Source: Brevundimonas sp. (GTDB lineage Bacteria > Pseudomonadota > Alphaproteobacteria > Caulobacterales > Caulobacteraceae). From it: DNA of 61,744 nt. The stretch spans positions 1 through 61,744 of the forward strand of contig JAAXIW010000239.1 in NCBI GenBank assembly GCA_012270135.1, written 5' to 3'. The notes below the pieces were generated by a model. It saw only the letters and a list, made by a program, of their open reading frames with translations. It was not told where the DNA came from and searched no databases. The translations under genes were made by a program, and so were the position numbers. Shown one piece after another: positions 27,988 to 45,721 of the stretch (the stretch's first letter is position 1; every line of letters begins with the position of its first letter).

Positions 27988-28175
27988 GCGCAGCCTCCCG
28001 TGTCCGGTGAGGCGACGGATTCGGCGGGAGGCTCGGACGCGGGCGTCAGCACCGATCCGTAGGGGTTGGCCGGTCGCCGGGCGGAGCCGTCGCAGGTCGG
28101 CAGCGCGGGATCGCCGCGGTGGGCGCAGGCTCCCAGCACCAACAGGCTAGCGAGCAGAAGTGAGCGGTAGGTCAT
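27984..28175 (-). CDS. virB7: VirB7-like lipoprotein
   Basis: LGAC lipobox, CDGSARRPAN; between virB6 and virB8. Confidence 0.7.
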   Translation of the reverse strand: MTYRSLLLASLLVLGACAHRGDPALPTCDGSARRPANPYGSVLTPASEPPAESVASPDTGGCA

Positions 28176-28176
28176 G

Positions 28177-29097: not shown

Positions 29098-29106
29098 GGC
29101 CGGTCC

Positions 29107-29322
29107 TCAGAACGCCTGCTCATAGGCGCGCATCCGGGCGTCACGCCGGGCCTCGGCCAGGCCGCGGCGCGCCGCCTCGCACTCCGTTTGCGTCCGGCCG
29201 GCGTCGCAGGCGGCCACGACCCGGGCCGCCGCGTCAGGGTCGGCCGCGAATTCCCCGGCCGTTCGGTCCGGCGCGCCGCAGCCGGCGAGCGCGAAGGCGG
29301 CGAGCAGGGCGATCCGCGTCAC
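29107..29322 (-). CDS. Entry-exclusion-like lipoprotein (EexN type)
   Basis: LAGC lipobox, two further Cys; located between virB5 and virB6. Confidence 0.65.
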   Translation of the reverse strand: MTRIALLAAFALAGCGAPDRTAGEFAADPDAAARVVAACDAGRTQTECEAARRGLAEARRDARMRAYEQAF

Positions 29323-30047
29323 TGGAAGGCCCTCTCGTAGACGCTCATGCGCGCCGTGCGGGCGGCTTCGGCCCGTTCCCGGGCGCGTTGCTCCTCCAGC
29401 CGGGCCTCGGCCGCCTGGGTCAGGGCCAGACCTTGCAGCCGCACCTGTTCGTTCTGGATCAGAGCCTGTTCCGCCGCGAGCCGCGCCTCCAGATCCATCA
29501 CCGCCCGGGCGTTGGGCGCGGTGTCGAGGGCCGAGCGCAGCGTCTCCAGACCCTCAAGCCGCCGGTCGGCGGCTCCGGCCACCGCCTCGCCCACGGCGAG
29601 ATCGCGCGCCGTGCGGGCGCCGGCGCGTTCGAGGCTGTCCCGGTAATAGGCGTTGGCCGGGCTCAGATCGCCCGTCGGCGGCGTGTACAGCCGGGTGTCG
29701 CGACGGATGGCGTTGGCGCGGTCAGCCAGGTCGCCGAGCGCGCCGAGGTCGCCGTTCGCCGCCGCCCGCATCGACCGCATATCGGGCAGGGGATTGCGCA
29801 CGGGCGGCAGGCCGAGCTCGCCGGCCAGGGCGTTGACGTCGGACAGGTTGTTGAGACTGTCGAACAGCCGCTGGCCCTGTTCGACCTGGGTCTGCAGCGC
29901 TTTCAACTGATCCAGGGTGGTGCGTGCCTCCTCGATCATCTGGGCGAGGGCCCTCGGGTCGTGGACGATCTGCTGGGCCCGGGCGGCCGGAGCGCCAGCG
30001 ACAACGAGGGCGGCGACGGCCGCGGCGGACAGGATTCGGGCTCTCAC
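29319..30047 (-). CDS. virB5: VirB5/TrbJ minor pilin
   Basis: Signal peptide, QQIVHDP, helical DLEARLAAEQALIQNE. Confidence 0.88.
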   Translation of the reverse strand: MRARILSAAAVAALVVAGAPAARAQQIVHDPRALAQMIEEARTTLDQLKALQTQVEQGQRLFDSLNNLSDVNALAGELGLPPVRNPLPDMRSMRAAANGDLGALGDLADRANAIRRDTRLYTPPTGDLSPANAYYRDSLERAGARTARDLAVGEAVAGAADRRLEGLETLRSALDTAPNARAVMDLEARLAAEQALIQNEQVRLQGLALTQAAEARLEEQRARERAEAARTARMSVYERAFQ

Positions 30048-32419: not shown

Positions 32420-32747
32420 GGGCCAGCTCCGTCGGACGGTAGCGCCGGATGAGAGGCAACGGTGTCGCCGAACTGCCGCCCCAGAGGGCGGCGTTGCGCG
32501 ACCGGCCCTTGGTGTCGACATAGACGAACAGCAGCCGGAAGGCGTTGTGATCCGCCCGACAGATCGCCCGGAACACCAGGTGCAGGGCCGGCGCGACGAG
32601 GAGATAGAGCAGGCTGCCGCCGACCAGGAAGACGACGCCCGAAAGGATGACATTCACGCCCATGGCCTCCATGGGGACGCCCAGGATCATGGCCGGTCGG
32701 GTGCAGGCCAGGAACAAGGGGTCTTCGGTCAGGCGCTCTTCAGCCAT
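32412..32747 (-). CDS. virB3: VirB3
   Basis: DPLFLACTRPAMILGVP, WGGSSATP. Confidence 0.92.
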   Translation of the reverse strand: MAEERLTEDPLFLACTRPAMILGVPMEAMGVNVILSGVVFLVGGSLLYLLVAPALHLVFRAICRADHNAFRLLFVYVDTKGRSRNAALWGGSSATPLPLIRRYRPTELARG

Positions 32748-32922
32748 GCGGGCCTCCGGCGGACAGGCGCGACAGGGCCAGGCCGATGGCGACGCCGGAG
32801 GCGAGGCCGGCGAAGATCTGGGCGAAGCGCTTGGGCGAGATCAGCTTCAGGCCGAGCATCAGGACCAGCGCCAGGAGCACCGAGGCCGATCCGATCACGA
32901 CCCAGGAGAGGGCGTCGTCCAT
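32740..32922 (-). CDS. 60-aa two-TM hypothetical protein between virB2 and virB3
   Basis: Start overlaps the virB2 stop (TGATG) and end overlaps the virB3 start; fills the gap exactly. Confidence 0.65.
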   Translation of the reverse strand: MDDALSWVVIGSASVLLALVLMLGLKLISPKRFAQIFAGLASGVAIGLALSRLSAGGPHG

Positions 32923-33221
32923 CAGGCGCCGCCCGTGATCAGATTGACGATCTCGGCCGCGCCGAAGACGACCACGATGCCGAGCACCACGATCGCCGCG
33001 CGCCGCAGGTCGAACAGGCCGAACATCCAGAGAATGCCGACGACCACGACCGCCAGGACGGCGAGCAGCCGCGCGGTGTTGCCGGTCAGCATGTCGACGA
33101 CGTTCTGAAGCAGGCCTTCGACGTTGGCGGAGGCGAAGGCCGGCTGGACCAGAATCAGGCTGGTCGCCAGGGCGATGGCGCCGACGGCGCCGAACCGGCG
33201 AGAGGAGATGGAGGCGGTCAT
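32922..33221 (-). CDS. virB2: VirB2/TrbC pilin
   Basis: Signal ending PAFA, two hydrophobic helices, VVFGAAEIV. Confidence 0.9.
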   Translation of the reverse strand: MTASISSRRFGAVGAIALATSLILVQPAFASANVEGLLQNVVDMLTGNTARLLAVLAVVVVGILWMFGLFDLRRAAIVVLGIVVVFGAAEIVNLITGGA

Positions 33222-33844
33222 TCAGAACTCCCGGTCTGGGTGGCGGTGAAGGTCAGGACCAGGCTGGTCCGGGCGCGCGCGAAGACGTCCCAGTCCGCCG
33301 CTGGCGCGGTCTGGACCGGGTCGGGCAGCGGCGCGGTCGCAAGGGGCTGGACGGGGCGCAAGGCCTGAACGCCGAGGCGGACGGCGGCCGCCTCGACCCG
33401 GGCGACATAGCCGTTGCGGAAGCCGCGCTCGGGATGACCGGTGTTGTAGCGGGAGAGGGCGATCCTCAACGTCGTCTGCGGATCGACGCCCTCGGCCGGC
33501 CGATAGCCCGCGCGAAGCACCTGACCGGCGGCGGCGAGGTTTCGGCAGGGATCGAAGGCCGCCTCGACCGACAGGCCGAGCCAGTCGAGGTTGTCGCTGT
33601 TGATCTGGGCGACGCCGAGATCGAGGTTCGCGCCTCGGGCCAGAAGGTCGCGCGCCACGCGCGCCGCCTCGGCGGCGTCGCGTGGCGTCCGCGCCGGCCG
33701 GGGGCCGCGGTTGACCCCGATGGCGTTCGGATTGAAGCGGCTTTCCGCATAGGCGACGGCCGCCAGGGTTTCGGGGGCCACATGCGGGGCGCAGGCTTGG
33801 GACAGGCTGAGGATGAGGGCGAGGTCCAGCAAGGGAGGCTCCAT
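33218..33844 (-). CDS. virB1: VirB1 lytic transglycosylase
   Basis: CAPHVAPETL, AESRFNP (catalytic Glu), DLGVAQINS, FDPCRNL, ALSRYNTG; start approximate. Confidence 0.92.
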   Translation of the reverse strand: MEPPLLDLALILSLSQACAPHVAPETLAAVAYAESRFNPNAIGVNRGPRPARTPRDAAEAARVARDLLARGANLDLGVAQINSDNLDWLGLSVEAAFDPCRNLAAAGQVLRAGYRPAEGVDPQTTLRIALSRYNTGHPERGFRNGYVARVEAAAVRLGVQALRPVQPLATAPLPDPVQTAPAADWDVFARARTSLVLTFTATQTGSSE

Positions 33845-33908
33845 CGTGAGCCCCGAGCAAAGCCGATGAGTCCCGGCCGCCGCGACCCGCGACCCTCCCG
33901 CCGGGCGT

Positions 33909-34169
33909 TTACGGTAGGAAGGTCCGGGGTTCAGGCGGCCGCTGGGCGGCCGCGAGCCGCGCCACGGCCTGGACGCGCGTCCGCACCCCGAGCGCACGGC
34001 AAGCGCCCATCAGATGTTCATCGACCGTGCGGGCGGACAGGCCGACCCTTTCGCCGATCGCCGCCGATGTCAGACCCTCGGCGGCCAGGGCAAGGCACTG
34101 CTTCTGCCGATCGGAAAGCCGGTCGAGCGTGGAGGAATCTGAAAGAGGGTCGGCGGGTAGCGGGCGCAT
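33909..34169 (-). CDS. Stand-alone LuxR-type HTH regulator
   Basis: LSDRQKQCLALAAEGLTSAAIG...RTVDEH...LGVRTRVQAV; no ligand-binding domain. Confidence 0.85.
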   Translation of the reverse strand: MRPLPADPLSDSSTLDRLSDRQKQCLALAAEGLTSAAIGERVGLSARTVDEHLMGACRALGVRTRVQAVARLAAAQRPPEPRTFLP

Positions 34170-34228
34170 CCGGTCATGAGGCGCCGAATGGAACCCTTGG
34201 ACCAGTCCGTAAGCCCGCCACCCGGGAT

Positions 34229-34729
34229 CTACGGTGCGCCCTTGTCCGAGCCGCCGTCGTCTCCGGTGGGGGAAACGAGCCGATGTCGCCGTTCCTCAAG
34301 CCAGGCGTCCGCCGCGCTCTCCCGGCGGACGGACTGCGCGGCCAGCTCGCGCAGGGCCTTGGTGAAGGTGTTGATGATGGTCAGGGACTCCAGCTCCGCG
34401 ATCGCGTCGCCCGCCTCCTCGTCGAACTCCTGCAGCACGACCGCGAGAATGGTGGCGAGCTTATTGTCGGCGCACCGCAAGGCGAAGGCGGGCGACCCGA
34501 GCGCCAGCGCCGCGAGGATCGCGTGGGGATCGCTGTCCGTGACCTCGGCGAAACGATGGACGCGCTCGATGTTGATGCGTCCGCCGCCGGACTCGAAATG
34601 CTCGTAGGAGCGCAGCGCCATGTTCATGGACTTGGCGACATCCGCCGCCCGCAGCCGACGATGGGTGCGGATCAGCCGAAGGGCGGTGGACAGGGTCTCG
34701 CTCTGGGACTGACGGTCGGCGCTCTCCAT
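34229..34729 (-). CDS. XRE-family HTH regulator
   Basis: LRLIRTHRRLRAADVAKSMNMALRSYEHFESG. Confidence 0.8.
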   Translation of the reverse strand: MESADRQSQSETLSTALRLIRTHRRLRAADVAKSMNMALRSYEHFESGGGRINIERVHRFAEVTDSDPHAILAALALGSPAFALRCADNKLATILAVVLQEFDEEAGDAIAELESLTIINTFTKALRELAAQSVRRESAADAWLEERRHRLVSPTGDDGGSDKGAP

Positions 34730-34985
34730 GACGTCGCTCTAACTCCGTTTCCGAGCACCGCGACTCGCGCGCACCGCACCCCTACTGGTTGAAAAATGAA
34801 GCAACCGTGCATCAAATGAAAGGTGGGAAACAAACGGGTCTATAAACCTTGTGTATTTGCGCAAAATATCTGCGGGTCGCACGCGAAATCTTTGCGGAAG
34901 TCGCCGATTACATGGTCGCATTCTCATCGCAACCCGAACTCGGCGTGGGTCGCGGCTTGAGCGCCCTCGCTGGGGGTTGGTCGTG

Positions 34986-35597
34986 ATGCGATCGCGAGAC
35001 CCCTATAACGACGCCCTGACCGCCTTGGCGGCGTTCGCCGGATCAGGCCGCTTCGGCTGGGGAGAGCCGTTGGTCGCCACCGCCTTGGCCGCCGAACTGG
35101 AGCTGTCCCAGACGCCCGTGCGCGAGGCCCTGGCCCGGCTCGCCGGCGAAGGTCTGATCGAACATCGCCCCGGGCGTGGCTACTACGCCCCCAGTCCCAG
35201 CGCCGACGACATCGTTGATCTCTACGAAATCCACCGGCGGCTGGTGCATTTGGCGATCGACCTTCTTGACGCCGCCGGAACGACTGTGGCGCTCCAGAGC
35301 GTCGGCGAGAGGAGCGAGGAGCGCTTCTACGCCGCCCTGGTCCGGTCGCCGGGGCGGGCGGTCTTGGCGCAAACCCATTGGCGCCTGACGCTGCGGCTTC
35401 GACCCATTCGGATCGTCTCGGCCGAATTGGCGCCGCCGGACCTGGCCTGGATCGTCGGTGTCGAACGCCACGTCGCGGACGGCGCGCTCGTCGCGTTGCG
35501 GCGCGAGGTCGATCTGCATCATCGAGAGAGATCGGCGCTCGCCACCGCCGTCGTGGCAGTCATGCGACAATCTGTCGAAAGTATAGGACAGATATAG
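34986..35597 (+). CDS. GntR-family regulator of the lasso cluster
   Basis: LAAELELSQTPVREALARLAGEGLIEHRPGRGY; GntR genes precede known proteobacterial lasso clusters. Confidence 0.88.
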   Translation: MRSRDPYNDALTALAAFAGSGRFGWGEPLVATALAAELELSQTPVREALARLAGEGLIEHRPGRGYYAPSPSADDIVDLYEIHRRLVHLAIDLLDAAGTTVALQSVGERSEERFYAALVRSPGRAVLAQTHWRLTLRLRPIRIVSAELAPPDLAWIVGVERHVADGALVALRREVDLHHRERSALATAVVAVMRQSVESIGQI

Positions 35598-35668
35598 TTT
35601 GAATATAGAGCCTCGCGGGCGCTGGCTTAGGGTGCGGGGCGTTTGGCCCCGTTCAAGGAGGCTACGAC

Positions 35669-35986
35669 ATGAAGACCAATCCCCTTCCGGGCCTGATCGG
35701 GCTCGGCTGCGCCAGCGCACTGACCCGCGCCGGCGGCGGCGTCGAAAAGATGGAGCTGATCCCGCTCTATTTCTACGACGACGCGTCCACGACCCAGATC
35801 GTCGGGCTCGGTTCCGCGGTGGAGCAGACCCGCGCCGACGGCCCGGGGCACAATCGGGAACTCAACCCGATCTACACCTACGTCGATCCCTCGGTCGCCC
35901 GCATCGGCGGGGCCGCGGAGCAGACGCGGGCGGACCAGCCCAGCGGCAATCGCGAGCTGATCCCGGTCGAGCGTTGGACCGCCTGA
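35669..35986 (+). CDS. Lasso peptide precursor with three tandem leader-core units
   Basis: AAGGAGG RBS; LIGLGCASALTR|AGGGVEKMELIPLYFYDD, IVGLGSAVEQTR|ADGPGHNRELNPIYTYVD, VARIGGAAEQTR|ADQPSGNRELIPVERWTA*. Confidence 0.9.
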   Translation: MKTNPLPGLIGLGCASALTRAGGGVEKMELIPLYFYDDASTTQIVGLGSAVEQTRADGPGHNRELNPIYTYVDPSVARIGGAAEQTRADQPSGNRELIPVERWTA

Positions 35987-36004
35987 GCGCGACGGCTCCG
36001 ACGG

Positions 36005-36032
36005 GGGGCGACGGCGGCGACGCCGCCGCCCC
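36005..36032 (+). promoter_or_regulatory. GC-rich hairpin between lasso A and B genes
   Basis: CGGCGGC-gac-GCCGCCG flanked by GGGG/CCCC; A-B intergenic hairpins are known in proteobacterial lasso clusters. Confidence 0.55.
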
Positions 36033-36036
36033 TGCC

Positions 36037-36666
36037 GTGCGCCTGTATTTCGCGCCGGACGTTCACCACGCCTGCGTCGGTGGTGACGCCGTCCTGCTCG
36101 ACGTGCGCGGCGACGGTTATCATTGCCTGCCGGACGGCGCCGCCCTGTGCCGGCGGCTCGCGGGAGGCGGTCTCGTCCGGATGAACGGCCCCGTCTCGGC
36201 CCTGATCGCGGCGGGGTTGATCGGAGCGGAGCCTTCGCCGAAGCCCCGGGTTCCGCCGGCTCGCCCGGTGCGTTCCGTGATCCACGCCGGAGGGCGTCTG
36301 GACCTGATGCGGGACCTGATCCCGGGGCTCTGCGCGATGCACGAGGTGCGGGCCGCCCGGCGCGGGGCCGGCCTGTCGCCTTATGTCAGTCTGGGCGGCG
36401 CCGAGCCTCGTGACGACCCTATGGCCGCGATCGAGGCCGGTCGGCGGTTCTGGACCCTGATGGCCTATTTGCCGATCGAGGGGGAATGCCTCGTCCGGTC
36501 GGCGCTGCTGGTCCGTTTTCTCCGGCGTCAGGGGCTTCGGGCCGACTGGGTGTTCGGCGTGCGCCTGTGTCCGTTCACCGCCCATTGCTGGGTGCAGGTC
36601 GGCGAGGTCTGTCTCAACGATGATGTGGAGCGGCTCGTGGCCTACACGCCGATCATGGTGCGATGA
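36037..36666 (+). CDS. Lasso peptide B protein (leader peptidase, transglutaminase-like, with N-terminal RRE-like segment)
   Basis: GTG start; DAVLLDVRGDGYHCL; catalytic ECLVRS, FTAHCW, CLND. Confidence 0.9.
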   Translation: MRLYFAPDVHHACVGGDAVLLDVRGDGYHCLPDGAALCRRLAGGGLVRMNGPVSALIAAGLIGAEPSPKPRVPPARPVRSVIHAGGRLDLMRDLIPGLCAMHEVRAARRGAGLSPYVSLGGAEPRDDPMAAIEAGRRFWTLMAYLPIEGECLVRSALLVRFLRRQGLRADWVFGVRLCPFTAHCWVQVGEVCLNDDVERLVAYTPIMVR

Positions 36667-38402
36667 GCGGCGACGCCGGCTATCTCCTCGTCGCCGACGC
36701 CGCGGACGCCCGCGATCCCGCCGTCGAGGCGGCCCTGGCGGCGCTACTGCGGAGCGGCTGGACCCTGCGGCTCGACGGCTTCGGTCTGAGGATTCTGACC
36801 GGACCGCGTTTCCCATGGCCCGTCGCGCAGGTTCATCGCGCCCATGCCCTGATCGGGGAATGGCGCGGGGAGGGCGCGCATCCTTCCGCGATCGCAGGCC
36901 GCTTCCCCGAAGGACGCCCGCTCGGCGCGGGCCTCATGAGCGAAGGCTGGGGCGCCTATCTGATGGTCTGGCGAGATCGCGACGGCCACCTGAACCTGGT
37001 GCGGGATCCGACCGGAGCGGTGGATGTGGTGTGGTGGCGGCGAGGTCCCGTCACCTTGGTGACCGACTGTCCTCCGCCGGCGCTCGACGCCGTCTTGCCG
37101 GACACGCTCGCGATCGACTGGCCACAACTGGGCGCCCTTCTGGCGACGCCTTCGCTTCTGACCGACGGATTGCCCCTCCAAGGTTTGACGCCGGTCGGCG
37201 CCGGTTGCTGGAGCCGGCCGGACCAAGACCTTCCCGACGAACCCCTGTGGCGGCCGACCGACTTCGTCCGTCGGGGCGCCGACGACGCCCCGGACGCTCT
37301 CGTGCGGGTCGTCGATCGCACCATCGACCGCACCATGCGCTCGCGTCGCCGGGTGGTCTCCGAACTCTCCGGGGGACTGGACTCGGCCATCGTGGCGGGA
37401 AGCCTGAGGGCGACGGGGCACGCCGAGCGCGCGGTCTTCATCAACTACTATGGCGACGACGCCGAAGGCGACGAGCGTCGTTACGCGGAGGCGGCCGCGG
37501 CGCTGAGCGGCGTTCCGCTCGAGACCGTTCGCAAGCCGGTCGAGGCGATCTCCGACGCGGACTTCACCACCCTGGCCTCCGGACTCCGTCCCGCCCTCCA
37601 AGGGGTGGACCCGGCCTATGATCGGCACGCCGCGGGCCGACTGGCGGCGCTGGGCGCCGACGGCCTGTTGACGGGACAGGGCGGCGACAGCGTCTTCTTC
37701 CAGGCCCCGGATCCCCTCGTCGCCGCCGACCGGTTCCGCCGCCAGGGCTTGCGCGCCCTCAATCCGGCCTATCTGGCGGCGGTGGGCCGCTGGACCCGCC
37801 ACTCCGCCTGGACCGTCGGCCGACTGGCGGTGCGCGGCCGGACGCAGACCGGATCGGGGCCGCGTCACCGGTGGCTCGACGACGCGGCCGAGCTTGCGCC
37901 CGCCAAGCGGGGGCAGCTGGAGCGGTTCGTGAACTGTCAGCTGTTCTGGACGGACTGTCTGAGGGCGCGCCAGGCCCCGCTGCTCAATCCCTTCCTCAGT
38001 CAGCCGGTCGTCGAACACTGCCTCGGCGTGCCGTCCGACCGGCTGACCCTGGGCGAACGGGACCGGGGCCTGGCCCGCCTGGCCTTCTCGGAGCGCCTGC
38101 CGCCCTTGATCGCCGAACGGCGGGACAAGGGCGATCTGAGCCACTTCTACGGCCAGGTCGTACGGGACAGCGCGCCGGCGCTCGCCGCCTTCCTCCTGGA
38201 GGGACGACTGGCGGCCCAGGGCGTCCTCGACCGGGCGACGCTCGAGGTTGATCTCGACCCGGCCCGCCTGCTCTGGCGCGAGGGCGCCAACGCCCCGTTG
38301 CTGGCCGCCGTCCTGGAGGCCTGGGCGCGCCACTGGGAGGGTCGGATCGCGCGTCGCCGGACCGAGGTAGCGCGCCAGCCAGTCGAGGATGTGGGCGTGT
38401 AG
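36663..38402 (+). CDS. Lasso cyclase C (asparagine synthetase-like)
   Basis: RDPTG, ELSGGLDSAIV, LTGQGGDSVF, PFLSQPVVE, RGLARLAF, RRDKG. Confidence 0.93.
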   Translation: MSGDAGYLLVADAADARDPAVEAALAALLRSGWTLRLDGFGLRILTGPRFPWPVAQVHRAHALIGEWRGEGAHPSAIAGRFPEGRPLGAGLMSEGWGAYLMVWRDRDGHLNLVRDPTGAVDVVWWRRGPVTLVTDCPPPALDAVLPDTLAIDWPQLGALLATPSLLTDGLPLQGLTPVGAGCWSRPDQDLPDEPLWRPTDFVRRGADDAPDALVRVVDRTIDRTMRSRRRVVSELSGGLDSAIVAGSLRATGHAERAVFINYYGDDAEGDERRYAEAAAALSGVPLETVRKPVEAISDADFTTLASGLRPALQGVDPAYDRHAAGRLAALGADGLLTGQGGDSVFFQAPDPLVAADRFRRQGLRALNPAYLAAVGRWTRHSAWTVGRLAVRGRTQTGSGPRHRWLDDAAELAPAKRGQLERFVNCQLFWTDCLRARQAPLLNPFLSQPVVEHCLGVPSDRLTLGERDRGLARLAFSERLPPLIAERRDKGDLSHFYGQVVRDSAPALAAFLLEGRLAAQGVLDRATLEVDLDPARLLWREGANAPLLAAVLEAWARHWEGRIARRRTEVARQPVEDVGV

Positions 38403-40715
38403 GTCGCGCAGGTTGCCGGGGCTGGCGAGCACATGGCCCTCGCCATAGTAGGTCAGCAGAGCCGCGTCCCGGTTTAGTCGGTAGAGGACGCCGAACAACT
38501 TGCCCATGCGCGGCCGCTCCAGATCGCTTTCGATCAGCAGGGCCGGCGCCCGCAGGTCCGCCGCCGAGAACAGCGGGCTCATCTCGACATAGCGGGCGGC
38601 GTCCGCCGGGAAGGCGCCGATCGCCGCCTGGCCTGTCTCCGCCCAGCCGGACAGCTGGCCGATGGGCACGCCCTCGTCGGGTGCGGAGCGGAAGAAGGGC
38701 GGCAGTTCGAAGGCGCTGATCAGGTCGGCGTAGCCGTTGGAGGCGATCACCGCCGCGACCCGGTCGCTGTGGGGCGCCGCGTTGAGCACATTGAAGGCCC
38801 CGTAGCTGTGACCGAGCAGGGCGTAGCGGTCGGCCCGGACCCGGCCAGTGGCGCCGGCCGCATCGGCGATGGCGTCGATCTGCGCGGCAAGGGCCGCGCC
38901 GGACCAGCGCCCATCCGGCGGGTTCGGCAGGCTGACATAGAGAACCGCATAGCCGCCCCCGGCGATGACCGCCGGATTGTTCTGGAGCATGGCGGAGCGG
39001 CGCGTGAGCGGTGACGGCGGACGCGACGAGACGCGGCCGGGGTAGACCTCGACGACCAGCGGCGCCTTGACCCCTTCCGGCAATCCCGGCGGCAGGAGCA
39101 GCCAGCTCTTCAGCGCCTGGCCGGCAGGACCGGTGTGCGCAACTTCGATGATTTCGCCCCAGTCGAAGGTCGCGCGATCGAGGTTGATCTCCGCCAGGGT
39201 CAGGCCGGCGTCGGCGCGATGGAGCCGGAAACGGGCGGATCCGTCGGCGGAGTCCTGACGGGCGACGACGAAGGCGCCGTCAGGGCTGGAGGCGACGCGG
39301 GTTTCATCCGGTTCCAGCGGCGAGACGCAGACCGGCGCCGCGTCGATCGCGGCCTTGGCGCAGCCGTCGCTGATCAGGGTGCGGCCGGGGGTCGCCTCGC
39401 GCACATAGGCGGCGCGGAAGCCGGCGTCGCGAGCCTCGCCGAGGTCGCTGATCCGGCCGGCGACGTCCGGGCCTCCGTTCAGGGACAGAAGCCGGTCGCC
39501 GCGCTCGATACGGGTCTCGCCGTTCCAGTCGACGAGCCGATCGCCCGTCTGGGCCGGGATCGGCGCGAGACCGCCCGGCACGCGCCATTGGGCGACGCCG
39601 GCGTCATCCAGGACCCGGAGCACGGGCGTGTCGCCGAGCCAGCCGCCCAGCGCCACCGGTTCGTCCCACGGGCTTCGCTCCGTCGCCGGCTTGTCCGCGA
39701 ACCTGGAGACCAAGCCGTCCAGCCCGATCGCGACATAGGCGCCGGACCGCTCGAAGCCGGCTTGGCCCACGTGGCGCGCGAAGGCGAGAAGCCGACGGCT
39801 GTCGGGGCTCCACGCCATCAGATAGGGGCCGTAATCGAGAGCGGGGTCGATCCGGGTTTCGGCGCCGGTGTCGATGTCGATCAGGCGCAGGGCGCGTCGG
39901 CGGATCGGGTCGCCGACCAGGACCGGGCGATCGGGATCGGGCTGCAGATCCTCGCGGTCCTCCAGCACGGCGATACGGGCGCCGTCCGGCGACAGGGCGA
40001 GATCGAAGATCGCACCCGCGGCGAGCGGCGTCTGCGCGCCGCTACGCACATCCAGGCGGAGGAGCGACAACGGTGGGCGATGTTCGCGGGTGTCGCGGGC
40101 CGAGCCGCTCGGAATGAAGGTGCCGCCGACGGATCGGCCGGACGCTGTCGCCGCCCAGAGCGCCGCGATACGGTCCTGGGCCTGGAAGCCGGTGCGGGCG
40201 ATCTCGGGCAGCTGTCCGCCCGGCTGCACGACGACGAGCAGTTCGTCGACGGTTCGCCAGAGCGCCGTCAGCCCGAGCCGCGGGTCTTCCGGCGCGAGCG
40301 CGGTCCAACGGACCGCGCCGGTCTCGAGCGACAGGACGCCCAGCCGCCAGCTGTCCGGCGTCAGCTCGTAGACGATCAGCCGGCGACCGTCGGGCGAGAA
40401 CCGTCCAGCCGTATAGCCGGCGGAATGGTCCGGGGTCTCCAGGGTGCGGACGACCTCGCCAAAGCGCGCGTCCACGATCTGGACGGCGCTGAGGAGGCGG
40501 TCGGTGTCCCTGGACAGCTTGTAGGAGGGCGCGCGGTCGTAGCGCGCCCGGCGTTCCAGCGCGATCCAGCGGCCGTCCGGACTGACGCGCGCATCGCCGA
40601 GACTCTCCTGACGCAGCAGGGCGTCGATGGTGAAAGGGCCGGAGGACTGGGCGAGCGCGGGACAAGCGAAGGCGAGCCCGGCCGCAAGGCCGAGCATCAG
40701 AACTGTGCGGTGCAT
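36744..40715 (-). CDS. Lasso peptide isopeptidase (AtxE2-like S9 prolyl oligopeptidase family); catalytic domain ends near 38361 but the frame is open to 36744
   Basis: Signal peptide, SPDG propeller repeats, GHSYG nucleophile, YYGEGH catalytic His; convergent with the cyclase. Confidence 0.85.
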   Translation of the reverse strand: MHRTVLMLGLAAGLAFACPALAQSSGPFTIDALLRQESLGDARVSPDGRWIALERRARYDRAPSYKLSRDTDRLLSAVQIVDARFGEVVRTLETPDHSAGYTAGRFSPDGRRLIVYELTPDSWRLGVLSLETGAVRWTALAPEDPRLGLTALWRTVDELLVVVQPGGQLPEIARTGFQAQDRIAALWAATASGRSVGGTFIPSGSARDTREHRPPLSLLRLDVRSGAQTPLAAGAIFDLALSPDGARIAVLEDREDLQPDPDRPVLVGDPIRRRALRLIDIDTGAETRIDPALDYGPYLMAWSPDSRRLLAFARHVGQAGFERSGAYVAIGLDGLVSRFADKPATERSPWDEPVALGGWLGDTPVLRVLDDAGVAQWRVPGGLAPIPAQTGDRLVDWNGETRIERGDRLLSLNGGPDVAGRISDLGEARDAGFRAAYVREATPGRTLISDGCAKAAIDAAPVCVSPLEPDETRVASSPDGAFVVARQDSADGSARFRLHRADAGLTLAEINLDRATFDWGEIIEVAHTGPAGQALKSWLLLPPGLPEGVKAPLVVEVYPGRVSSRPPSPLTRRSAMLQNNPAVIAGGGYAVLYVSLPNPPDGRWSGAALAAQIDAIADAAGATGRVRADRYALLGHSYGAFNVLNAAPHSDRVAAVIASNGYADLISAFELPPFFRSAPDEGVPIGQLSGWAETGQAAIGAFPADAARYVEMSPLFSAADLRAPALLIESDLERPRMGKLFGVLYRLNRDAALLTYYGEGHVLASPGNLRDLHAHILDWLARYLGPATRDPTLPVARPGLQDGGQQRGVGALAPEQAGRVEINLERRPVEDALGRQSSLQEEGGERRRAVPYDLAVEVAQIALVPPFGDQGRQALREGQAGQAPVPFAQGQPVGRHAEAVFDDRLTEEGIEQRGLARPQTVRPEQLTVHEPLQLPPLGGRKLGRVVEPPVTRPRSGLRPAAHRQSADGPGGVAGPAAHRRQIGRIEGAQALAAEPVGGDEGIRGLEEDAVAALSRQQAVGAQRRQSARGVPIIGRVHPLEGGTESGGQGGEVRVGDRLDRLANGLERNAAQRRGRLRVTTLVAFGVVAIVVDEDRALGVPRRPQASRHDGRVQSPGEFGDHPATRAHGAVDGAIDDPHESVRGVVGAPTDEVGRPPQGFVGKVLVRPAPATGADRRQTLEGQSVGQKRRRRQKGAQLWPVDRERVRQDGVERRRRTVGHQGDGTSPPPHHIHRSGRIPHQVQVAVAISPDHQIGAPAFAHEARAERASFGEAACDRGRMRALPAPFPDQGMGAMNLRDGPWETRSGQNPQTEAVEPQGPAAPQ

Positions 40716-43672
40716 CACCAGCTCCGGGTCAGCTGGAGCGAGACGTAGCGGCCGATGACGTCCGAGTTCGCCGCGTCATAGGCCACGCCTTCGGGCGCGT
40801 CGTAGAAGGGCGGATCACGGTCAAAGAGGTTCTGGATCGTCAGGGCGACGGCCGTCCCGGCGAACGGACCCGTCTCCGGCGCATAGCGCACCTGAAGATC
40901 GGCCGTGGTCCAGGAGCCGATGCGACGCCCGGAGGTGTCGGCGTAGTCGGAGACATGATCCACCGCTCCGCCGAGGGTGAGCGGGCCCCTCGTCCAGCTG
41001 AGATGGGTGCGACCCCGCAGGCCCACGGGATAGTTCGGTCGATCCAGCTGGGAGACCACGGGGGAGGTGGGCGTGGCCCGGGCGTCGAAGCGCTCCAGCC
41101 AGGTCAGGCTGCTGGTCAGATCGAAGGCGTCAGGGCCGACCGCGAAGGCGTAGGCGACCGTGAGGTCGGCGCCCTGGACCTGGACGCTGGCGGTGTTGAC
41201 GTAGCGGGCGTCGACGATGGCGCCGTAATCGGTGGCCGGGAACAGGTCACGCAGGTTGGTGGTCGGCAAATCGAGGATCGCCTGCATGTCGGCGCGATCC
41301 TGGGCGTTGTTGGCCGGATCGATGATCCGAACGAACGGGCTCAGGGTGGTGTCGCTCAGCGCGGTGAGGATGTTCTCCAGAGCCGGTTGGCCGATCCGGT
41401 TCTCGAAATCCGTGCGGAAGGCGTTGACGCTGATCCGGAGACCCTGAACCGAGGCGGGCTCGAAATCGCCCCCAACCGTCCAGGTGTCGGCGGTTTCGGG
41501 CTCCAGATCCGGATTGCCGCCATACAGGATCATGGTCAGGATCTGGTTGGGTCCGCGGGGCAGGATCGAGGGACTGGCCGTCGCCGCGTCATTCACCTCG
41601 CGCAGGGCCGGCGCCCGGAAGGACCGGCCGTAGTTGGCCCGCAGGCGCGCGCCCGCCATGGGTTCCCAGACCAGACCGACCTTGGGGCTCGTCGTCTGAC
41701 CGACATCGCCATAGTCCTCGAACCGGGCCGCCAGCGACAGTTCGAGCCGTTCCAGTCCCGGACGGCTGTTGCCGGCCCCGAACAGGGGAATCCGCGCCTC
41801 CGCATAGACCGCCGCCACGTCGCGCTCGCTGGCGTTCAGCGCGCCCAGGACGGGCGCGATGCCGGAGGTGAAACTGTCCACCTTGCGGTCGAAATTCTCG
41901 CGCCGGAGCGCCGCCCCGACCGCGAGTTTCAACGGGCCGCCGGGCAGCTCCAACAGGTCGCCGTCCAGCATCACGTTCGCCGTGGTGATGCGGCTCTCGC
42001 TCCACAGATGGGTCCAGCCGCCCGTGATGAAGTCCAGCGCGGCCTGCGGATTGACGTTCCCCGCCCCGAACGGATTGAGAAAGCCGTCCCTGGCGGCGCT
42101 GTAGCCCGTGGCCGGATTGTCCGCCAAGGCGCCCAGCGCCTCGCGCAGATAGGTCGATTGCAGCGTGCCCGACGACCCGAAGCCGGCTTCTTCCGCGCCG
42201 TAGGCGAGATAGCTCGACAACCGCCACGAGCCGCCCAGGTCGAGATCGGCGCCGATCGTCGCGGACAGGGTCTCGACCTCCCCGGATTGCACCGGGTTGG
42301 GCGTCTGACCGGCGAAGGAATAGGCGATCAGGTGCGAATTCGCGCCCGTCGGGGATTCGAAGAAGGGGTTATTGCGGTTGACGGTCAGCAGCGTGGCGAT
42401 CGGCGACGATCGGGTCTCATAGTCGCGCCGGGCCCAGCGCGCGTCGCCGGACAGGGTCAGCCGGCCGCCGAGATCCTGCCGTCCCGCCAGATAGGCGATA
42501 TGGCGGGTCTGCCGCGGAAAGACGTTCATGCCGAACCGCTGATTGGTGCGGTTCTCCTGCCCCGGCAGGAAATCGCCCGGAGCCAGGTTGGTCCCGTCCT
42601 GACCGCCCGGGATGGCGAAGGCGGAGACATAGGCGCCCGACGCCGGGTCGATCACCATGATGTTGCCGGGGTTGCTGTAGTTCAGTCGGCGATCCGATCC
42701 GCCGAAGCGGCGCAGATCGGCGTCACCCGCGCGATCGCGTTCGGCCGCGGGCAGGGCTTCGCGGTCCTGGTATTCGTAGACGCCCATAAGACTGCCGCTG
42801 CCCCATCGCCGCCCGATCGTCTGGGCGAACAGGACATCGGAGAAGGCGCCGTCGGCGGCCGTGCCGTAGCGCGCTCTGGTCTCGGCGCCGTCGTAGTCGT
42901 CACGCAGGACCACATTGATGACCCCGCCCACGGCGTCGGCGCCGTAGAGAGCCGAGGCTCCGTCGAGCAGGACGTCGATCCGCTCAACGGCGGCCGTCGG
43001 AATCGACGAGACGTCGGCGAAATCGCCCTTGGAGCCGGTCCCGGCGATCCGCCGGCCGTTGACCAACACCAGGGTCGCGTCGCTGCCGAGGCCGCGCAGG
43101 TTCACCCCATTGGAGTAGTTGGCGTTGGTGCCGCTGCGGTCGCCGCCGTTGCTGAGGGTGGCGTCATTGGCGGTGCCTGCGAAATTCTGCGGCAGCGCCG
43201 CCAGGGCTTGAGCGACGGTCGCGTGGCCGTCGCGATCAATCTGGTCGCGGCTGACGACCACCACCGGCGAGGGGCCGTCGAGCACCCCGCGCAGCAGGCT
43301 GCCCGTGACGACGACCTCGTCCAGCTGGACGGCTTCCAGCTGTTCGGCCTCGGCGCGTTGCGACGGGTCGATGAGGACGAACACATTGGGCCGGCTCCGT
43401 CGATAGGTCAGGCCGGTGTCGCGCAGGAGCAGCGCCAGCGCCGTCTCGACGGAATAGTCGCCCGAAAGTGACGCCGAGGCCCGGTCCGCCACCAGGGCGC
43501 TCGGATAGAGGATCTGCTGACCGCTCTGGCGAGCGAAGGCGGGGAGGGTGCGCGCCAGCGGCCCTGCCGGGATGTCGAAGCGACGCGCGGACTCGGCCTG
43601 CTGGGCGCAGACCGGCGTCGCCGACGCCATCAGAAGCGCCGCGAGCGCCGTTGAAGTGAAGCCCTGTCTCAT
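40715..43672 (-). CDS. TonB-dependent receptor/transducer with N-terminal STN signalling domain
   Basis: FDIPAGPL..FARQSG STN, EVVVTGS, NLRGLG, DGASALYGADAVGGVIN, GNPDLEPE, C-terminal W. Confidence 0.93.
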   Translation of the reverse strand: MRQGFTSTALAALLMASATPVCAQQAESARRFDIPAGPLARTLPAFARQSGQQILYPSALVADRASASLSGDYSVETALALLLRDTGLTYRRSRPNVFVLIDPSQRAEAEQLEAVQLDEVVVTGSLLRGVLDGPSPVVVVSRDQIDRDGHATVAQALAALPQNFAGTANDATLSNGGDRSGTNANYSNGVNLRGLGSDATLVLVNGRRIAGTGSKGDFADVSSIPTAAVERIDVLLDGASALYGADAVGGVINVVLRDDYDGAETRARYGTAADGAFSDVLFAQTIGRRWGSGSLMGVYEYQDREALPAAERDRAGDADLRRFGGSDRRLNYSNPGNIMVIDPASGAYVSAFAIPGGQDGTNLAPGDFLPGQENRTNQRFGMNVFPRQTRHIAYLAGRQDLGGRLTLSGDARWARRDYETRSSPIATLLTVNRNNPFFESPTGANSHLIAYSFAGQTPNPVQSGEVETLSATIGADLDLGGSWRLSSYLAYGAEEAGFGSSGTLQSTYLREALGALADNPATGYSAARDGFLNPFGAGNVNPQAALDFITGGWTHLWSESRITTANVMLDGDLLELPGGPLKLAVGAALRRENFDRKVDSFTSGIAPVLGALNASERDVAAVYAEARIPLFGAGNSRPGLERLELSLAARFEDYGDVGQTTSPKVGLVWEPMAGARLRANYGRSFRAPALREVNDAATASPSILPRGPNQILTMILYGGNPDLEPETADTWTVGGDFEPASVQGLRISVNAFRTDFENRIGQPALENILTALSDTTLSPFVRIIDPANNAQDRADMQAILDLPTTNLRDLFPATDYGAIVDARYVNTASVQVQGADLTVAYAFAVGPDAFDLTSSLTWLERFDARATPTSPVVSQLDRPNYPVGLRGRTHLSWTRGPLTLGGAVDHVSDYADTSGRRIGSWTTADLQVRYAPETGPFAGTAVALTIQNLFDRDPPFYDAPEGVAYDAANSDVIGRYVSLQLTRSW

Positions 43673-43736
43673 GTGTCTCCCCCGGTTTCTTATCCGCATT
43701 GATGCGGGACCGGGAGGAGACGACCGGTCGCGGGCC

Positions 43737-44744
43737 TTACCCTAAGTCCGGGGTCAGATTATTTTTCGATGCGCCCGAAAGCACCACATGACCGTCCTCG
43801 GCCCGTTCGGCGGTGAGCGGATAGAGGTCGCGCAGCGCCGCCACGAAACCCTCGACGTCGCCGGCGTCGAACACCCCGCTCACCCGGATGGAGGAAATGT
43901 CCCCGGCGCGCAGTTCGATCGGATGACGGGTGTAGCGGTTGACCTCAGCCACGGCGACGCCGATCGGCGTTTCGTGGAAGGTCAGTCGGCCCGCCGCCCA
44001 GCTGGTCGCCGCGGGTAGATCGGTCGTGACCACCCGGGGTCGGGGGACGGACGTCACCAGCTGCTGTCCCGGCTGCATCGACCAGCGCCGGTCCGCCTGT
44101 TCGCCCTCGCGCACATCGACCCGGCCCTCGACAAGCACCACGCGTGCGCCCGTCCCGAAGCGCCGGACGTCGAAGCTCGTGCCCAAGGCCGTAACCTCGG
44201 TGTCGCCGGCCTTGACGACGAACGGCCGGTCCGGGTCGCCCTCAACGTCGAACCGGGCCTGGCCCGTGACGAGGGTGACCAGCCGGCGGCCCCCGGTCAG
44301 GCGAACGTCGATCCTGGAGTCCGTGTCGAGCGTGATCGTCGAGCCGTCGGCCAGTTGAACGACGCGGCGTTCGCCGACCTGGGTGAGATAGGGGGTCGGC
44401 TGCTGCGCTGACCACAACCACCAGCCCACGGACAGGGCCGCGATCGCGGCGCCGACGGCGCCGACGGGGGCGAGAACACCGAGCAGGCGGGGGCGGGCCC
44501 TGCGGCGGGAGGCGGCGCGGGTCCGGGCGTCCGCCGAAAGCGCGGCCATCTCGGGTTGGTCGGCCAGGGTGCGACTCGCGTCCCACATCGCCTGCATGCG
44601 GTCGAAGCTCTCGGCGTTCCTGGAGTCCCGTCGCCAGGCGCTGAAGGCCTTCACGTCCGCCGTGGTGACCTTGCGCTGGTTGAGCCGCGCGAACCAGTCG
44701 GTGGTCTCCTTGCGTCTGATGTCGGCGTCAGCCTCGGTCGTCAT
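43737..44744 (-). CDS. fecR: FecR-family anti-sigma factor
   Basis: DWFARL, TM segment, TQVGERRVVQLADGS, VTALGTSFDV, AEVNRY, VSGVF. Confidence 0.92.
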   Translation of the reverse strand: MTTEADADIRRKETTDWFARLNQRKVTTADVKAFSAWRRDSRNAESFDRMQAMWDASRTLADQPEMAALSADARTRAASRRRARPRLLGVLAPVGAVGAAIAALSVGWWLWSAQQPTPYLTQVGERRVVQLADGSTITLDTDSRIDVRLTGGRRLVTLVTGQARFDVEGDPDRPFVVKAGDTEVTALGTSFDVRRFGTGARVVLVEGRVDVREGEQADRRWSMQPGQQLVTSVPRPRVVTTDLPAATSWAAGRLTFHETPIGVAVAEVNRYTRHPIELRAGDISSIRVSGVFDAGDVEGFVAALRDLYPLTAERAEDGHVVLSGASKNNLTPDLG

Positions 44745-44754
44745 CAGTCTTCGC

Positions 44755-45240
44755 CTAAAGGTCCAGCCGCAGCGCGCAGTAGTCGAGCGCCTTGGACATC
44801 CGCCACTCCACCGTCTTGACGCTGATCTCGAGCTCCTTGGCGATCTCGGGATACGTCATACCGTCAAAGCGGCTCAAGACGAAGACGTCGCGGTAGAGTT
44901 GCGGCATGGATCGTATGATCTGGGCGAGCAGAACCTGATCGAACTGGGGCGCGCCTTCGGATTCGGGGGATTGGAGGTCGGCGTCGCTTGGCCGACGGCG
45001 CCTATGTTTGGCGTCATCGCGCACCAGATTGAGGGCGACCCGGAGCAGGAAGGCGCGGGGATGGGCGATCCCGCCGTCGGCGAAGGGCGCGATGCGGATA
45101 TAGGTTTCCTGCACGACGTCGGCCGCATCGTCCGGACCGATCCGAGCCCGGAGGCGACGGTTCAACCACGCAGCGTAGCGGCGGTACAGGCCGTCCAGGC
45201 CGCCGCCGACCTCCGCTTGCAATGGCTTCGCTTCGCTCAC
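44755..45240 (-). CDS. fecI: ECF sigma factor (FecI-like)
   Basis: AADVVQETYIR region 2; VFVLSRFDGMTYPEIAKELEISVKTVE region 4; probable GTG start. Confidence 0.9.
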   Translation of the reverse strand: MSEAKPLQAEVGGGLDGLYRRYAAWLNRRLRARIGPDDAADVVQETYIRIAPFADGGIAHPRAFLLRVALNLVRDDAKHRRRRPSDADLQSPESEGAPQFDQVLLAQIIRSMPQLYRDVFVLSRFDGMTYPEIAKELEISVKTVEWRMSKALDYCALRLDL

Positions 45241-45721
45241 CCTGCCTCTCCGACCGCAATTCAGACGGCTGGAATCCGGGGCGCGAACGGACAGCCGGGC
45301 GCAGGCGCTCACACGCCTGACACGGTGATCCGGTCAGCGACAGCCACGCCGCGCGTGGGTCGTCGAAGAAGATATCGCACAGGGGATTCCAAGCCCCTGC
45401 CGACGCGTAGGTCGGCCTTGGCGAGCATGAATCAAACGAAATCCCGACGCAAGCGGGAGGGGTCGGGCGTTGGAATCCTCTGCGAACGAGGCCCGTTACT
45501 TCAGCGCGCAGCGCCGCCTCCGTCAGCGACGAACCCCGGCTCCGGCTGTGCGCCTATCTCGCGGCGCCCGACGGCCCCGCTGTAGTCGCGACCTGTCTGC
45601 GGTTCAACCGGCGGGGAGGCTTCCGTCCCGCAAGAAACCTGCGGGCGACCCGCAATTCATCGACGTTGCCCGGGCGCGAACCCGCCGTGTACGGAGGGAG
45701 TCGGACAACCGGTGGTGTAAT

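What the first reader, a model, noticed from the sequence alone, without database searches (positions are those of the whole stretch)
35669..35986. One ORF encodes three tandem lasso peptide leader-core units (multi-core lasso precursor)
Seen: one uninterrupted 105-aa ORF with a strong RBS directly upstream of lasso B and C. It holds three 12-aa leader motifs (LIGLGCASALTR, IVGLGSAVEQTR, VARIGGAAEQTR), each with hydrophobic -12, Gly -8 and Thr -2. Each is followed by an alignable 18-aa segment: AGGGVEKMELIPLYFYDD (from 35729), ADGPGHNRELNPIYTYVD (from 35834), ADQPSGNRELIPVERWTA (from 35930). All three have Ala1, Glu9, ELxP and an aromatic at position 16 (Y, Y, W). There is no internal stop and no ATG ahead of leaders 2 or 3. 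Known: lasso precursors have Thr -2 and a 7-9 residue ring closed on Asp/Glu; clusters making several lassos (caulosegnins, astexin-2/3, xanthomonins) use separate genes; multi-core precursors are known in cyanobactins and graspetides. Inference: one B/C pair processes a polyprotein into three 9-residue-ring lassos. I know of no characterised lasso precursor like this, but cannot check the literature here.
Basis: partly seen in the sequence, partly recalled or inferred. Interest (0 to 1): 0.95.

Follow-up and report, generated by a model that had tools for sequence, protein, structure and literature searches.

The report
Three-in-one lasso peptide precursor gene
This bacterial gene strings three leader-plus-core units of knotted "lasso" peptides into one protein, a layout kept in dozens of related Brevundimonas genomes and not described in the papers searched, and one enzyme pair likely cuts it into three separate lasso peptides.

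Summary
One open 105-aa gene carries three leader-core units in an otherwise ordinary isopeptidase-type lasso cluster (GntR-A-B-C, isopeptidase, TonB receptor, FecR, sigma). It is not an assembly error: two other species' genomes and contigs of four sequencing runs carry it nearly unchanged. It belongs to a family: at least 36 of 267 genomes of the genus have a fused two- or three-unit precursor, on one branch of the cyclase tree; relatives outside that branch, with the same gene order where checked, use separate genes. Internal cores keep Arg-1, Ala1, Glu9 and Tyr16 in 23 of 23 distinct units found without selecting for them, and are under purifying selection (dN/dS 0.19, against 0.15 for terminal cores). 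The cores match the characterised caulonodin IV-VII type. Best reading (inferred, untested): B cuts after every leader and C closes each core, so internal lassos first carry the next leader as a tail. A published database already lists relatives but parses them as one long leader or one 59-aa core. Ten paper searches found no description; five key papers were not readable. Two look-ups of this scan's earlier findings showed nothing alike.

The parts
35655..35661 (+). Ribosome-binding site AAGGAGG, 7 nt before the ATG
   Evidence: sequence; AGGAGG or GGAGG-like sites stand before most fused relatives
35669..35986 (+). Precursor gene A, 105 aa, three leader-core units in one frame
   Evidence: 318/318 and 317/318 nt identical in L032 and L031
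35669..35728 (+). Leader 1 (aa 1-20), ends LIGLGCASALTR
35729..35782 (+). Core 1 (aa 21-38): Ala1, Glu9, Tyr16; true C-terminal end unknown
35783..35833 (+). Linker plus internal leader 2 (aa 39-55); predicted to stay first as the tail of lasso 1
   Evidence: fate inferred
35834..35887 (+). Core 2 (aa 56-73): Ala1, Glu9, Tyr16; true C-terminal end unknown
35888..35929 (+). Internal leader 3 (aa 74-87), the shortest spacing seen (9 residues from position 16 to the next Gly-8)
35930..35983 (+). Core 3 (aa 88-105), terminal: Ala1, Glu9, Trp16, free C-terminus
35987..36060 (+). G+C-rich stem-loop between A and B (predicted -41.8 kcal/mol for these 74 nt, no shuffle control); not a terminator by the consensus scan
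36037..36666 (+). Lasso B protein, one chain: N-terminal leader-binding part (assignment recalled) plus Cys protease; start codon GTG is my choice
   Evidence: PF13471 E 1e-20; NF033537 lasso_biosyn_B2 71.8 bits, cut-off 33; Cys151 and His183 invariant in 48 homologues
36663..38402 (+). Lasso cyclase C, 579 aa
   Evidence: PF00733 E 7e-22; lasso cyclase models hit below their cut-offs; SGGLDS motif in the sequence
38377..40718 (-). Lasso-isopeptidase-like S9 peptidase (homologous part; in this window the frame runs on to 36744)
   Evidence: PF00326; GHSYG and EGH motifs; S9 peptidase in PDB, E 6e-12
40715..43699 (-). TonB-dependent receptor with STN domain
43737..44744 (-). FecR-type anti-sigma factor
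44755..45312 (-). ECF-type sigma factor
34851..35597 (+). GntR regulator before the precursor (start uncertain)
   Evidence: PF00392 E 6e-13

Best explanation
The gene encodes one 105-aa chain of three complete lasso leader-core units beside a lasso B protease and C cyclase, and B likely cuts after each of the three Thr-Arg leader ends so that C can close an Ala1-Glu9 ring on each freed core, predicted to give three different caulonodin-type lasso peptides. Shown: the layout, the enzymes' identity, the conservation. Inferred steps: (1) B recognises every leader, internal ones included. (2) Each cut frees an Ala1 amine; a lasso ring needs that free amine, so each core needs its own leader and no chain of linked lassos can form. 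(3) Core 3 is an ordinary 18-aa substrate; cores 1 and 2 come out as 35- and 32-aa species that still carry the next, spent leader as a tail, and C closes the ring round them with Tyr16 as the lower plug. (4) Housekeeping carboxypeptidases would trim those tails towards 17-22 aa, since the fused clusters show no gained gene where compared. (5) The layout likely arose once, by fusion of adjacent separate precursor genes, and fixes co-production of two or three lassos; their biological role, as for other isopeptidase-type clusters, is unproven (a receptor/sigma-coupled signal or uptake role is the literature's analogy).
For: Enzymes. Internal units found through the cyclase alone keep Arg-1, Ala1, Glu9, Tyr16 in 23 of 23 while core positions 2-8 show 5-7 residues each; 54 of 54 in the larger, partly pattern-selected set; 46 of 47 in an independent protein search, the exception being a mis-split by my motif. 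dN/dS over 22 disjoint pairs: first core 0.19, middle core 0.20 (4 pairs), terminal core 0.15, internal leader 0.21; ring positions 2-8, which no search pattern fixed, 0.33 (first) and 0.25 (terminal). The same core type is made from separate genes: caulonodin VI has Ala1, a 9-residue ring and Tyr16, VII has Ser1, Glu9, Trp16, both with LIRxGSAKRLTR leaders (PMC12214591 supplement rows; plug between 15 and 16 for VI). Tail extensions are tolerated by some lasso enzymes, truncation by host carboxypeptidases is known, and a natural 18-aa tail exists (PMC13352647). Fusion origin: tree; same gene order in separate-gene clusters; first gene Tyr16 then second gene Trp16 in 23 of 32 separate-gene clusters and first unit Tyr16, last unit Trp16 in 22 of 27 fused precursors.
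Against: No product has been seen. The same review says tail additions 'typically' cut yields strongly; predicted first tails of 20 and 17 residues are at or above the natural record of 18. The only experiment found on this family, the terminal core BulA fused to a foreign leader with the foreign cyclase FusC, gave no lasso; it does not test the native enzymes. Support for the fused branch is moderate (86/84). The nearest separate-gene relatives do not follow the Tyr-then-Trp order (L064 has Trp then Tyr; L006, L070, L071 have Phe then Trp), and in one subgroup both cores are near copies, which points to duplication or homogenisation there.
Confidence: 0.6

Rival explanations
1. All three cores become lassos, but the tails are handled differently: either the 32-35-aa long-tailed forms are the end products, or a housekeeping endopeptidase must remove the spent leader before C accepts cores 1 and 2.
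For: No dedicated trimming gene among the 11 cluster and flanking proteins scanned and the same gene set in fused and separate clusters. A Gly at core position 20 is kept in most internal units, as in many free tails (count made before my motif fix). A natural lasso with an 18-aa tail exists.
Against: The linker length varies (9-13 residues from position 16 to the next Gly-8) and this window's terminal core ends two residues after Trp16, so a long tail is not needed by this core type. Carboxypeptidase truncation of lasso tails is known in cells.
Confidence: 0.22
2. Only the terminal core is matured; the upstream units are extra leaders that raise enzyme occupancy, or decoys, and their cores are cut off and discarded or left unthreaded.
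For: This is how a published table parses 5 of the 9 rows I retrieved (53-56-aa leader plus one core). A second leader improved modification in an engineered graspetide (PMC13003496 passage). Tail additions usually lower lasso yields.
Against: A spacer has no reason to keep Glu9 and Tyr16 invariant or to hold ring positions 2-8 under purifying selection. First cores score higher against first cores of other precursors than against last cores (32.3 against 21.7), as expected of distinct products.
Confidence: 0.13
3. The three units are really separate genes or separate translation products: stops were lost in assembly, or internal starts give single-core precursors.
For: The genome is 77% complete and in 389 contigs. 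An in-frame ATG lies at Met28. Relatives use separate genes.
Against: Contigs of 4 of 4 runs laid match the gene without a difference (two are flagged as possible sources of this DNA, and all four are near-identical). L031, from a single-contig genome, differs at 1 of 318 nt. All 69 pattern matches read through the junction between units in one frame (34 of 35 genome loci as intact multi-unit genes, one frameshifted in leader 1; 34 of 34 metagenome loci, one cut by the contig end). No start codon stands between core 2 and leader 3, and a start at Met28 would still give a two-core chain.
Confidence: 0.03

Closest known systems
Caulonodins IV-VII (Caulobacter sp. K31; class II lasso peptides)
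   Same: Ala/Ser at position 1, 9-residue ring on Glu9, aromatic residue at 16, 17-19-aa cores, leaders ending in L-I-R-x-G-x-A-x-x-x-T-R/Q type motifs, two precursors per cluster with Tyr16 (VI) and Trp16 (VII) (PMC12214591 supplement rows and passage).
   Different: Each caulonodin has its own gene of 36-40 aa; here two or three units are one chain, so internal cores have no free C-terminus.
Isopeptidase-type proteobacterial lasso clusters (astexin-2/3, benenodin, caulosegnin, sphingopyxin)
   Same: GntR before the precursor; isopeptidase, TonB-dependent transporter and sigma/anti-sigma pair downstream (PMC9266682 passage); same gene set here.
   Different: Multi-product clusters of this kind use several precursor genes (PMC7549694 passage); a June 2026 review gives the precursor as one 20-40-aa leader plus one 13-33-aa C-terminal core.
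Engineered lasso C-terminal fusions (astexin-1, pandonodin)
   Same: A lasso is matured with extra sequence on its tail (PMC13352647 section 17), which is what internal cores would need.
   Different: Those are laboratory constructs with one leader and one core; here the extension is natural and is itself the next leader.
Multi-core RiPP precursors: graspetides (plesiocin, chryseoviridin, thuringinin) and cyanobactins
   Same: Several cores in one ribosomal chain (graspetides: PMC13003496 passage; cyanobactins: recalled).
   Different: They use one leader for all cores and different enzymes (ATP-grasp ligases; PatA/PatG proteases, recalled). Here the whole leader is repeated before every core, and no such enzyme family appears among the 11 proteins scanned.

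Membership tests
Lasso peptide cluster | Leader peptidase B (transglutaminase-like Cys protease) | tested here: met
   PF13471 and NF033537 above cut-off; Cys151, His183 invariant in 48 homologues
Lasso peptide cluster | Asparagine-synthetase-like cyclase C | tested here: met
   PF00733 78.9 bits, cut-off 21; NCBIfam lasso cyclase models match only below cut-off
Lasso peptide cluster | Precursor with Thr-2 and an Asp/Glu acceptor at core position 7-9 | tested here: met
   All three units have Thr-2 and Glu9
Lasso peptide cluster | One N-terminal leader (20-40 aa) and one C-terminal core (13-33 aa), as the 2026 review states it | tested here: not met
   Three leader-core units in 105 aa against the description; this is the departure
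Lasso peptide cluster | Product is an isopeptide-closed, threaded [1]rotaxane | not testable with these tools
   Needs MS, protease and NMR work
Isopeptidase-type clade | GntR - A - B - C, then isopeptidase, TonB receptor, anti-sigma and sigma | tested here: met
   definition
Isopeptidase-type clade | S9 peptidase opens the threaded product | not testable with these tools
   Catalytic Ser and His motifs present; no AtxE2 or SpI-IsoP structure among the 2 PDB hits; activity untested
Caulonodin IV-VII core type | Ala/Ser1, Glu9, aromatic residue at 16 or 17, no Cys in the core | tested here: met
Benenodin-family precursor (NCBIfam NF033522) | Score above the curated cut-off | tested here: not met
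   15.8 bits against 33
Graspetide or cyanobactin multi-core precursors | ATP-grasp ligase or PatA/PatG-type protease beside a single-leader, many-core precursor | tested here: not met
   None among 11 proteins of window 33.2-45.3 kb scanned against Pfam; leader repeated before each core

The most novel reading that the evidence does not exclude
This is the first natural polyprotein route to lasso peptides: a (leader-core)n chain, n = 2 or 3, born by fusion of separate precursor genes, from which one B/C pair makes every core into a threaded lasso while the next leader still hangs on its tail. The family is spread on a conjugative element across dozens of Brevundimonas species and has been sitting mis-parsed in mining tables.
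Probability: 0.6. Interest if true: 0.85.

Novelty: new variant of a known kind. Interest (0 to 1): 0.76.

Why it matters
Lasso precursors are described as one leader plus one C-terminal core, and mining tables are laid out that way. A natural leader-core repeat breaks that pattern and makes an open mechanistic question directly testable with an unmodified substrate: can the cyclase close a ring round a core whose tail goes on into another leader, and in what order does B work along the chain? Enzymes evolved to accept long C-terminal extensions would be good tools for lasso display and lasso-protein fusions, and for making several lassos from one gene. It also corrects database entries (wrong masses for 59-aa 'cores', first cores missed) and gives a clean case of precursor-gene fusion inside an unchanged cluster.

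Tried and rejected
Lost stops or mis-assembly: rejected. A dedicated trimming protease gained with the fusion: not found; gene order and set are the same in fused loci and in the 5 separate-gene loci read over 14-18 kb, but this used the window's own genes as queries, so an unrelated small gene elsewhere would be missed. A changed B protein: no insertion or extra domain visible in fused-clade B against separate-gene B (every second row shown). More than three units: none seen among 69 pattern loci, 61 profile hits of 38-200 aa or the 25 hits among 1.84 billion cluster representatives (lengths 38-147 aa; 15 new hits read). Wide taxonomic spread: not found; 1 of 338 genomes of other genera of the family had a full two-unit match (G316), and the pattern is tuned to this family, so unrelated multi-unit lasso precursors were not searched for. 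Expression: contigs of 3 of 4 RNA runs laid (three studies) cover the precursor gene, one of them 35641-35999; contigs cannot show strand or level, DNA carry-over is possible and the runs were found with this stretch, so I give it little weight. Sigma-70 promoter and terminator scan: nothing. B has no sequence match in the PDB. My first split of units mis-cut two precursors; corrected. The first tree run did not finish; rerun. Left out of the 79-row tree: 11 of 90 loci (5 with under 400 aa of C aligned, 2 without C, 3 distant, 1 duplicate).

Full report
1. The observation. Window 35669-35986 (+) is one frame of 105 codons with no internal stop, behind AAGGAGG at 35655-35661. It holds three units, each ending its leader in G-x-A-x-x-x-T-R and starting a core with Ala1, Glu9, E-L-x-P and Tyr, Tyr or Trp at 16. 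The units align without gaps at DNA level and each has the third-position GC of a real gene (0.87-0.93; cyclase 0.85). The repeat score (161) was reached by 0 of 1000 shuffles, and no other of 30,992 frames in the genome has two such motifs at this spacing.

2. The cluster. Downstream lie a single-chain B protein (PF13471; NF033537 above cut-off) and a cyclase (PF00733), then on the other strand an S9 peptidase, a TonB-dependent receptor, FecR and an ECF sigma factor; a GntR gene lies upstream. This is the near-constant layout of isopeptidase-type lasso clusters (PMC9266682, passage). Further left are XRE and LuxR regulators, a transglycosylase (Pfam SLT) and genes that I read from recall as a VirB type IV secretion set, so the cluster probably rides on a conjugative element. 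It is the only lasso cluster that the window's B and C find in the genome, which is 77% complete.

3. Not an artefact. Two other species' genomes carry the gene at 318/318 and 317/318 nt, one of them a single-contig genome. Contigs of 4 of 4 runs laid span 35400-36900 with no difference inside the gene; two are flagged as possible sources, and all are near-identical, so the diverged relatives below are the stronger evidence.

4. A family, sampled without regard to layout. Searching the genus with the cyclase gave matches in 121 of 267 genomes. I read the DNA upstream of C in 90 loci in all: 40 of the 41 best matches (44-100% identity; one at a contig edge was not fetched) and a part of the weaker ones. 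Of those 40, 35 have a fused precursor (28 with two units, one of them frameshifted in leader 1; 7 with three), 1 has two separate genes (L064), 2 end at a contig edge and 2 have lost the precursor region. Of the other 39 loci in the tree, 0 are fused: 32 have two or three separate genes, 6 one gene, 1 none in the DNA held. With G029, whose C gene is broken, at least 36 of 267 genomes have the fused form. In the cyclase tree all fused rows lie on one branch (FastTree 97, 79 rows; IQ-TREE 86/84, 31 rows) inside separate-gene clusters; the branch that adds L064 has 100/99, so L064 may be a sister or a re-split. A DNA pattern for two units (it recovers the 37 fused loci then held) found 35 loci among 185,579 species genomes, nearly all titled Brevundimonas or unnamed Caulobacterales, two Caulobacter MAGs, one Alphaproteobacteria bin and one bin titled Rhizobium, and 34 in metagenomes. 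All 69 read through the junction between units in one frame: 34 of 35 and 34 of 34 as multi-unit genes, the exception frameshifted in leader 1. Gene order is the same wherever the locus reaches, except four loci without isopeptidase or receptor hits. In all, 56 distinct precursors: 47 counted with two units (one of them cut by a contig end) and 9 with three; three-unit relatives include diverged forms (L005, L141, L156). Profile searches added more diverged two-unit forms (P0103-P0106, P0110) and none with four. Database names, where given, are 'hypothetical' or 'uncharacterized' protein.

5. Internal cores look like products. Among precursors found through the cyclase alone, 23 of 23 distinct internal units have Arg-1, Ala1, Glu9 and Tyr16, while positions 2-8 take 5-7 different residues; 20 of 20 terminal units have Arg-1, Ala1, Glu9 and Trp or Tyr16. 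Over 22 disjoint pairs from 47 genes, dN/dS is 0.26 for leader 1, 0.19 for the first core, 0.21 for the last leader, 0.15 for the terminal core, 0.20 for the middle core (4 pairs). Part of that set came from the pattern, which fixes some key codons; ring positions 2-8 are free of that bias and give 0.33 (first) and 0.25 (terminal). Pairs share ancestry, so the printed p-values overstate. First cores resemble other first cores more than last cores (mean 32.3 against 21.7). The core type is a characterised one: caulonodin VI has Ala1, a 9-residue ring and Tyr16 with the ring between 15 and 16; VII has Ser1, Glu9, Trp16; both have LIRxGSAKRLTR leaders and separate genes (PMC12214591, passages and supplement rows).

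6. Origin. Five separate-gene clusters read over 14-18 kb have the same gene order round the precursors. In 23 of 32 separate-gene clusters the first gene has Tyr16 and the second Trp16 (4 more have Phe then Trp); 22 of 27 fused precursors have Tyr16 first and Trp16 last. A free single-core relative of the first-unit type ends in a tail much like the internal linker (P0111). This favours fusion of adjacent genes with loss of the stop, the gap and the first few leader residues. Against: the nearest separate-gene relatives do not show that order, and in one subgroup (L003, L029, L034, L038, L048, L054, L061) the two cores are near copies, so duplication or homogenisation also acts.

7. Mechanism. 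[quoted passage not shown] Inferred: B cuts before Ala21, Ala56 and Ala88. Because each ring needs a free amine, each core needs its own leader, which explains a (leader-core)n layout rather than the one-leader, many-core layout of graspetides. Core 3 is a normal 18-mer; cores 1 and 2 are first 35 and 32 aa, with tails of 20 and 17 residues from position 16, and would then be trimmed. I give 0.6 to this, 0.22 to all cores made but with other handling of the tail, 0.13 to the terminal core only, 0.03 to separate products. Binding of internal leaders to B was not modelled. The only experiment found on the family is negative and off-target: the terminal core BulA behind the fusilassin leader was not cyclised by FusC (PMC12480086, passage and supplement rows; its file 4 could not be read).

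8. What is in print. Ten searches of the open library (for most hits I saw only the listing) turned up no account of a natural multi-unit lasso precursor. The June 2026 review has no 'multicore' or 'multiple core' and describes one leader plus one core. Multi-product clusters are described as having more than one precursor (PMC7549694, passages). The sequences themselves are not new: the LassoPred table, compiled from earlier RODEO and RRE-Finder mining, holds 6 relatives in 9 rows, 5 rows parsed as a 53-56-aa leader plus one core and 4 as a short leader plus a 59-aa core, three precursors under both parses. Also seen in passages only: PMC13003496 and PMC5067487. Not held, so unseen: Tietz 2017, Kretsch 2023, Barrett and Mitchell 2024, Zong 2016, Rubin and Ding 2020. 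Most subscription papers and all preprint supplements are outside reach, so an earlier remark cannot be excluded; I put that at about one in four. This scan's own index showed no look-alike sequence and no like finding.

9. Verdict. Real, conserved and under selection; a new variant of a known kind: known enzymes, known core type, precursor layout not found described. Interest 0.76: a lasso specialist would not expect it, and one E. coli expression with LC-MS decides it.

Noticed in passing
window 36744-40718 (-), base 38210: The isopeptidase frame has no stop where near-identical relatives have one (L031 and L032 differ at this base; L096 also stops there), so it runs on for about 490 more codons antisense to the cyclase gene. 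Allele or assembly error not resolved.
   Followed up: partly
L053/L167 (G020:C3) and L047/L166 (G070:C77): Clusters of the fused-type cyclase branch that have lost the precursor: in the first GntR and A are gone and B follows the XRE gene; in the second LuxR, XRE, GntR, A and B are gone while C, isopeptidase and receptor remain.
   Followed up: partly
P0002 (one JGI contig): A copy of this precursor lacking 19 residues that cover leader 2, so core 1 runs straight into core 2. Single record; real deletion or assembly slip unknown.
   Followed up: partly
window 35834-35887; L005, L141, L150, L156: The middle cores of two separate three-unit lineages are alike (GPG in most, then ELNP-V/I-F/Y-TY), and two-unit relatives of this window (P0007-P0015) have a first core that looks half like core 1 and half like core 2. 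Unit number may shrink or grow by recombination between repeats.
   Followed up: no
L003, L029, L034, L038, L048, L054, L061: In this subgroup the two cores of one precursor are near copies (similarity 54-66 against 11-32 elsewhere), a sign of duplication or gene conversion.
   Followed up: partly
L033 (G060): Two-unit precursor with a frameshift in leader 1; real break or sequencing error unknown.
   Followed up: partly
L108, L112, L120, L121; L099: Four fused-precursor loci show no isopeptidase or TonB-receptor hit in the 6.6-9 kb held downstream; L099 has about 2.4 kb extra between C and the isopeptidase.
   Followed up: no
window about 28000-45300: The whole segment, secretion-system genes included, is 97-100% identical in another genome record (L096), and the precursor region is held in full by runs of freshwater, drinking-water, wastewater and seawater metagenomes: a recently mobile element. 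Lasso cyclase matches occur in 121 of 267 genomes of the genus.
   Followed up: partly
window 35599-36666 (+): The B reading frame is open for 146 codons upstream of its likely start, across the whole precursor gene in another frame; B has no clear ribosome-binding site and a strong stem-loop covers its start.
   Followed up: no
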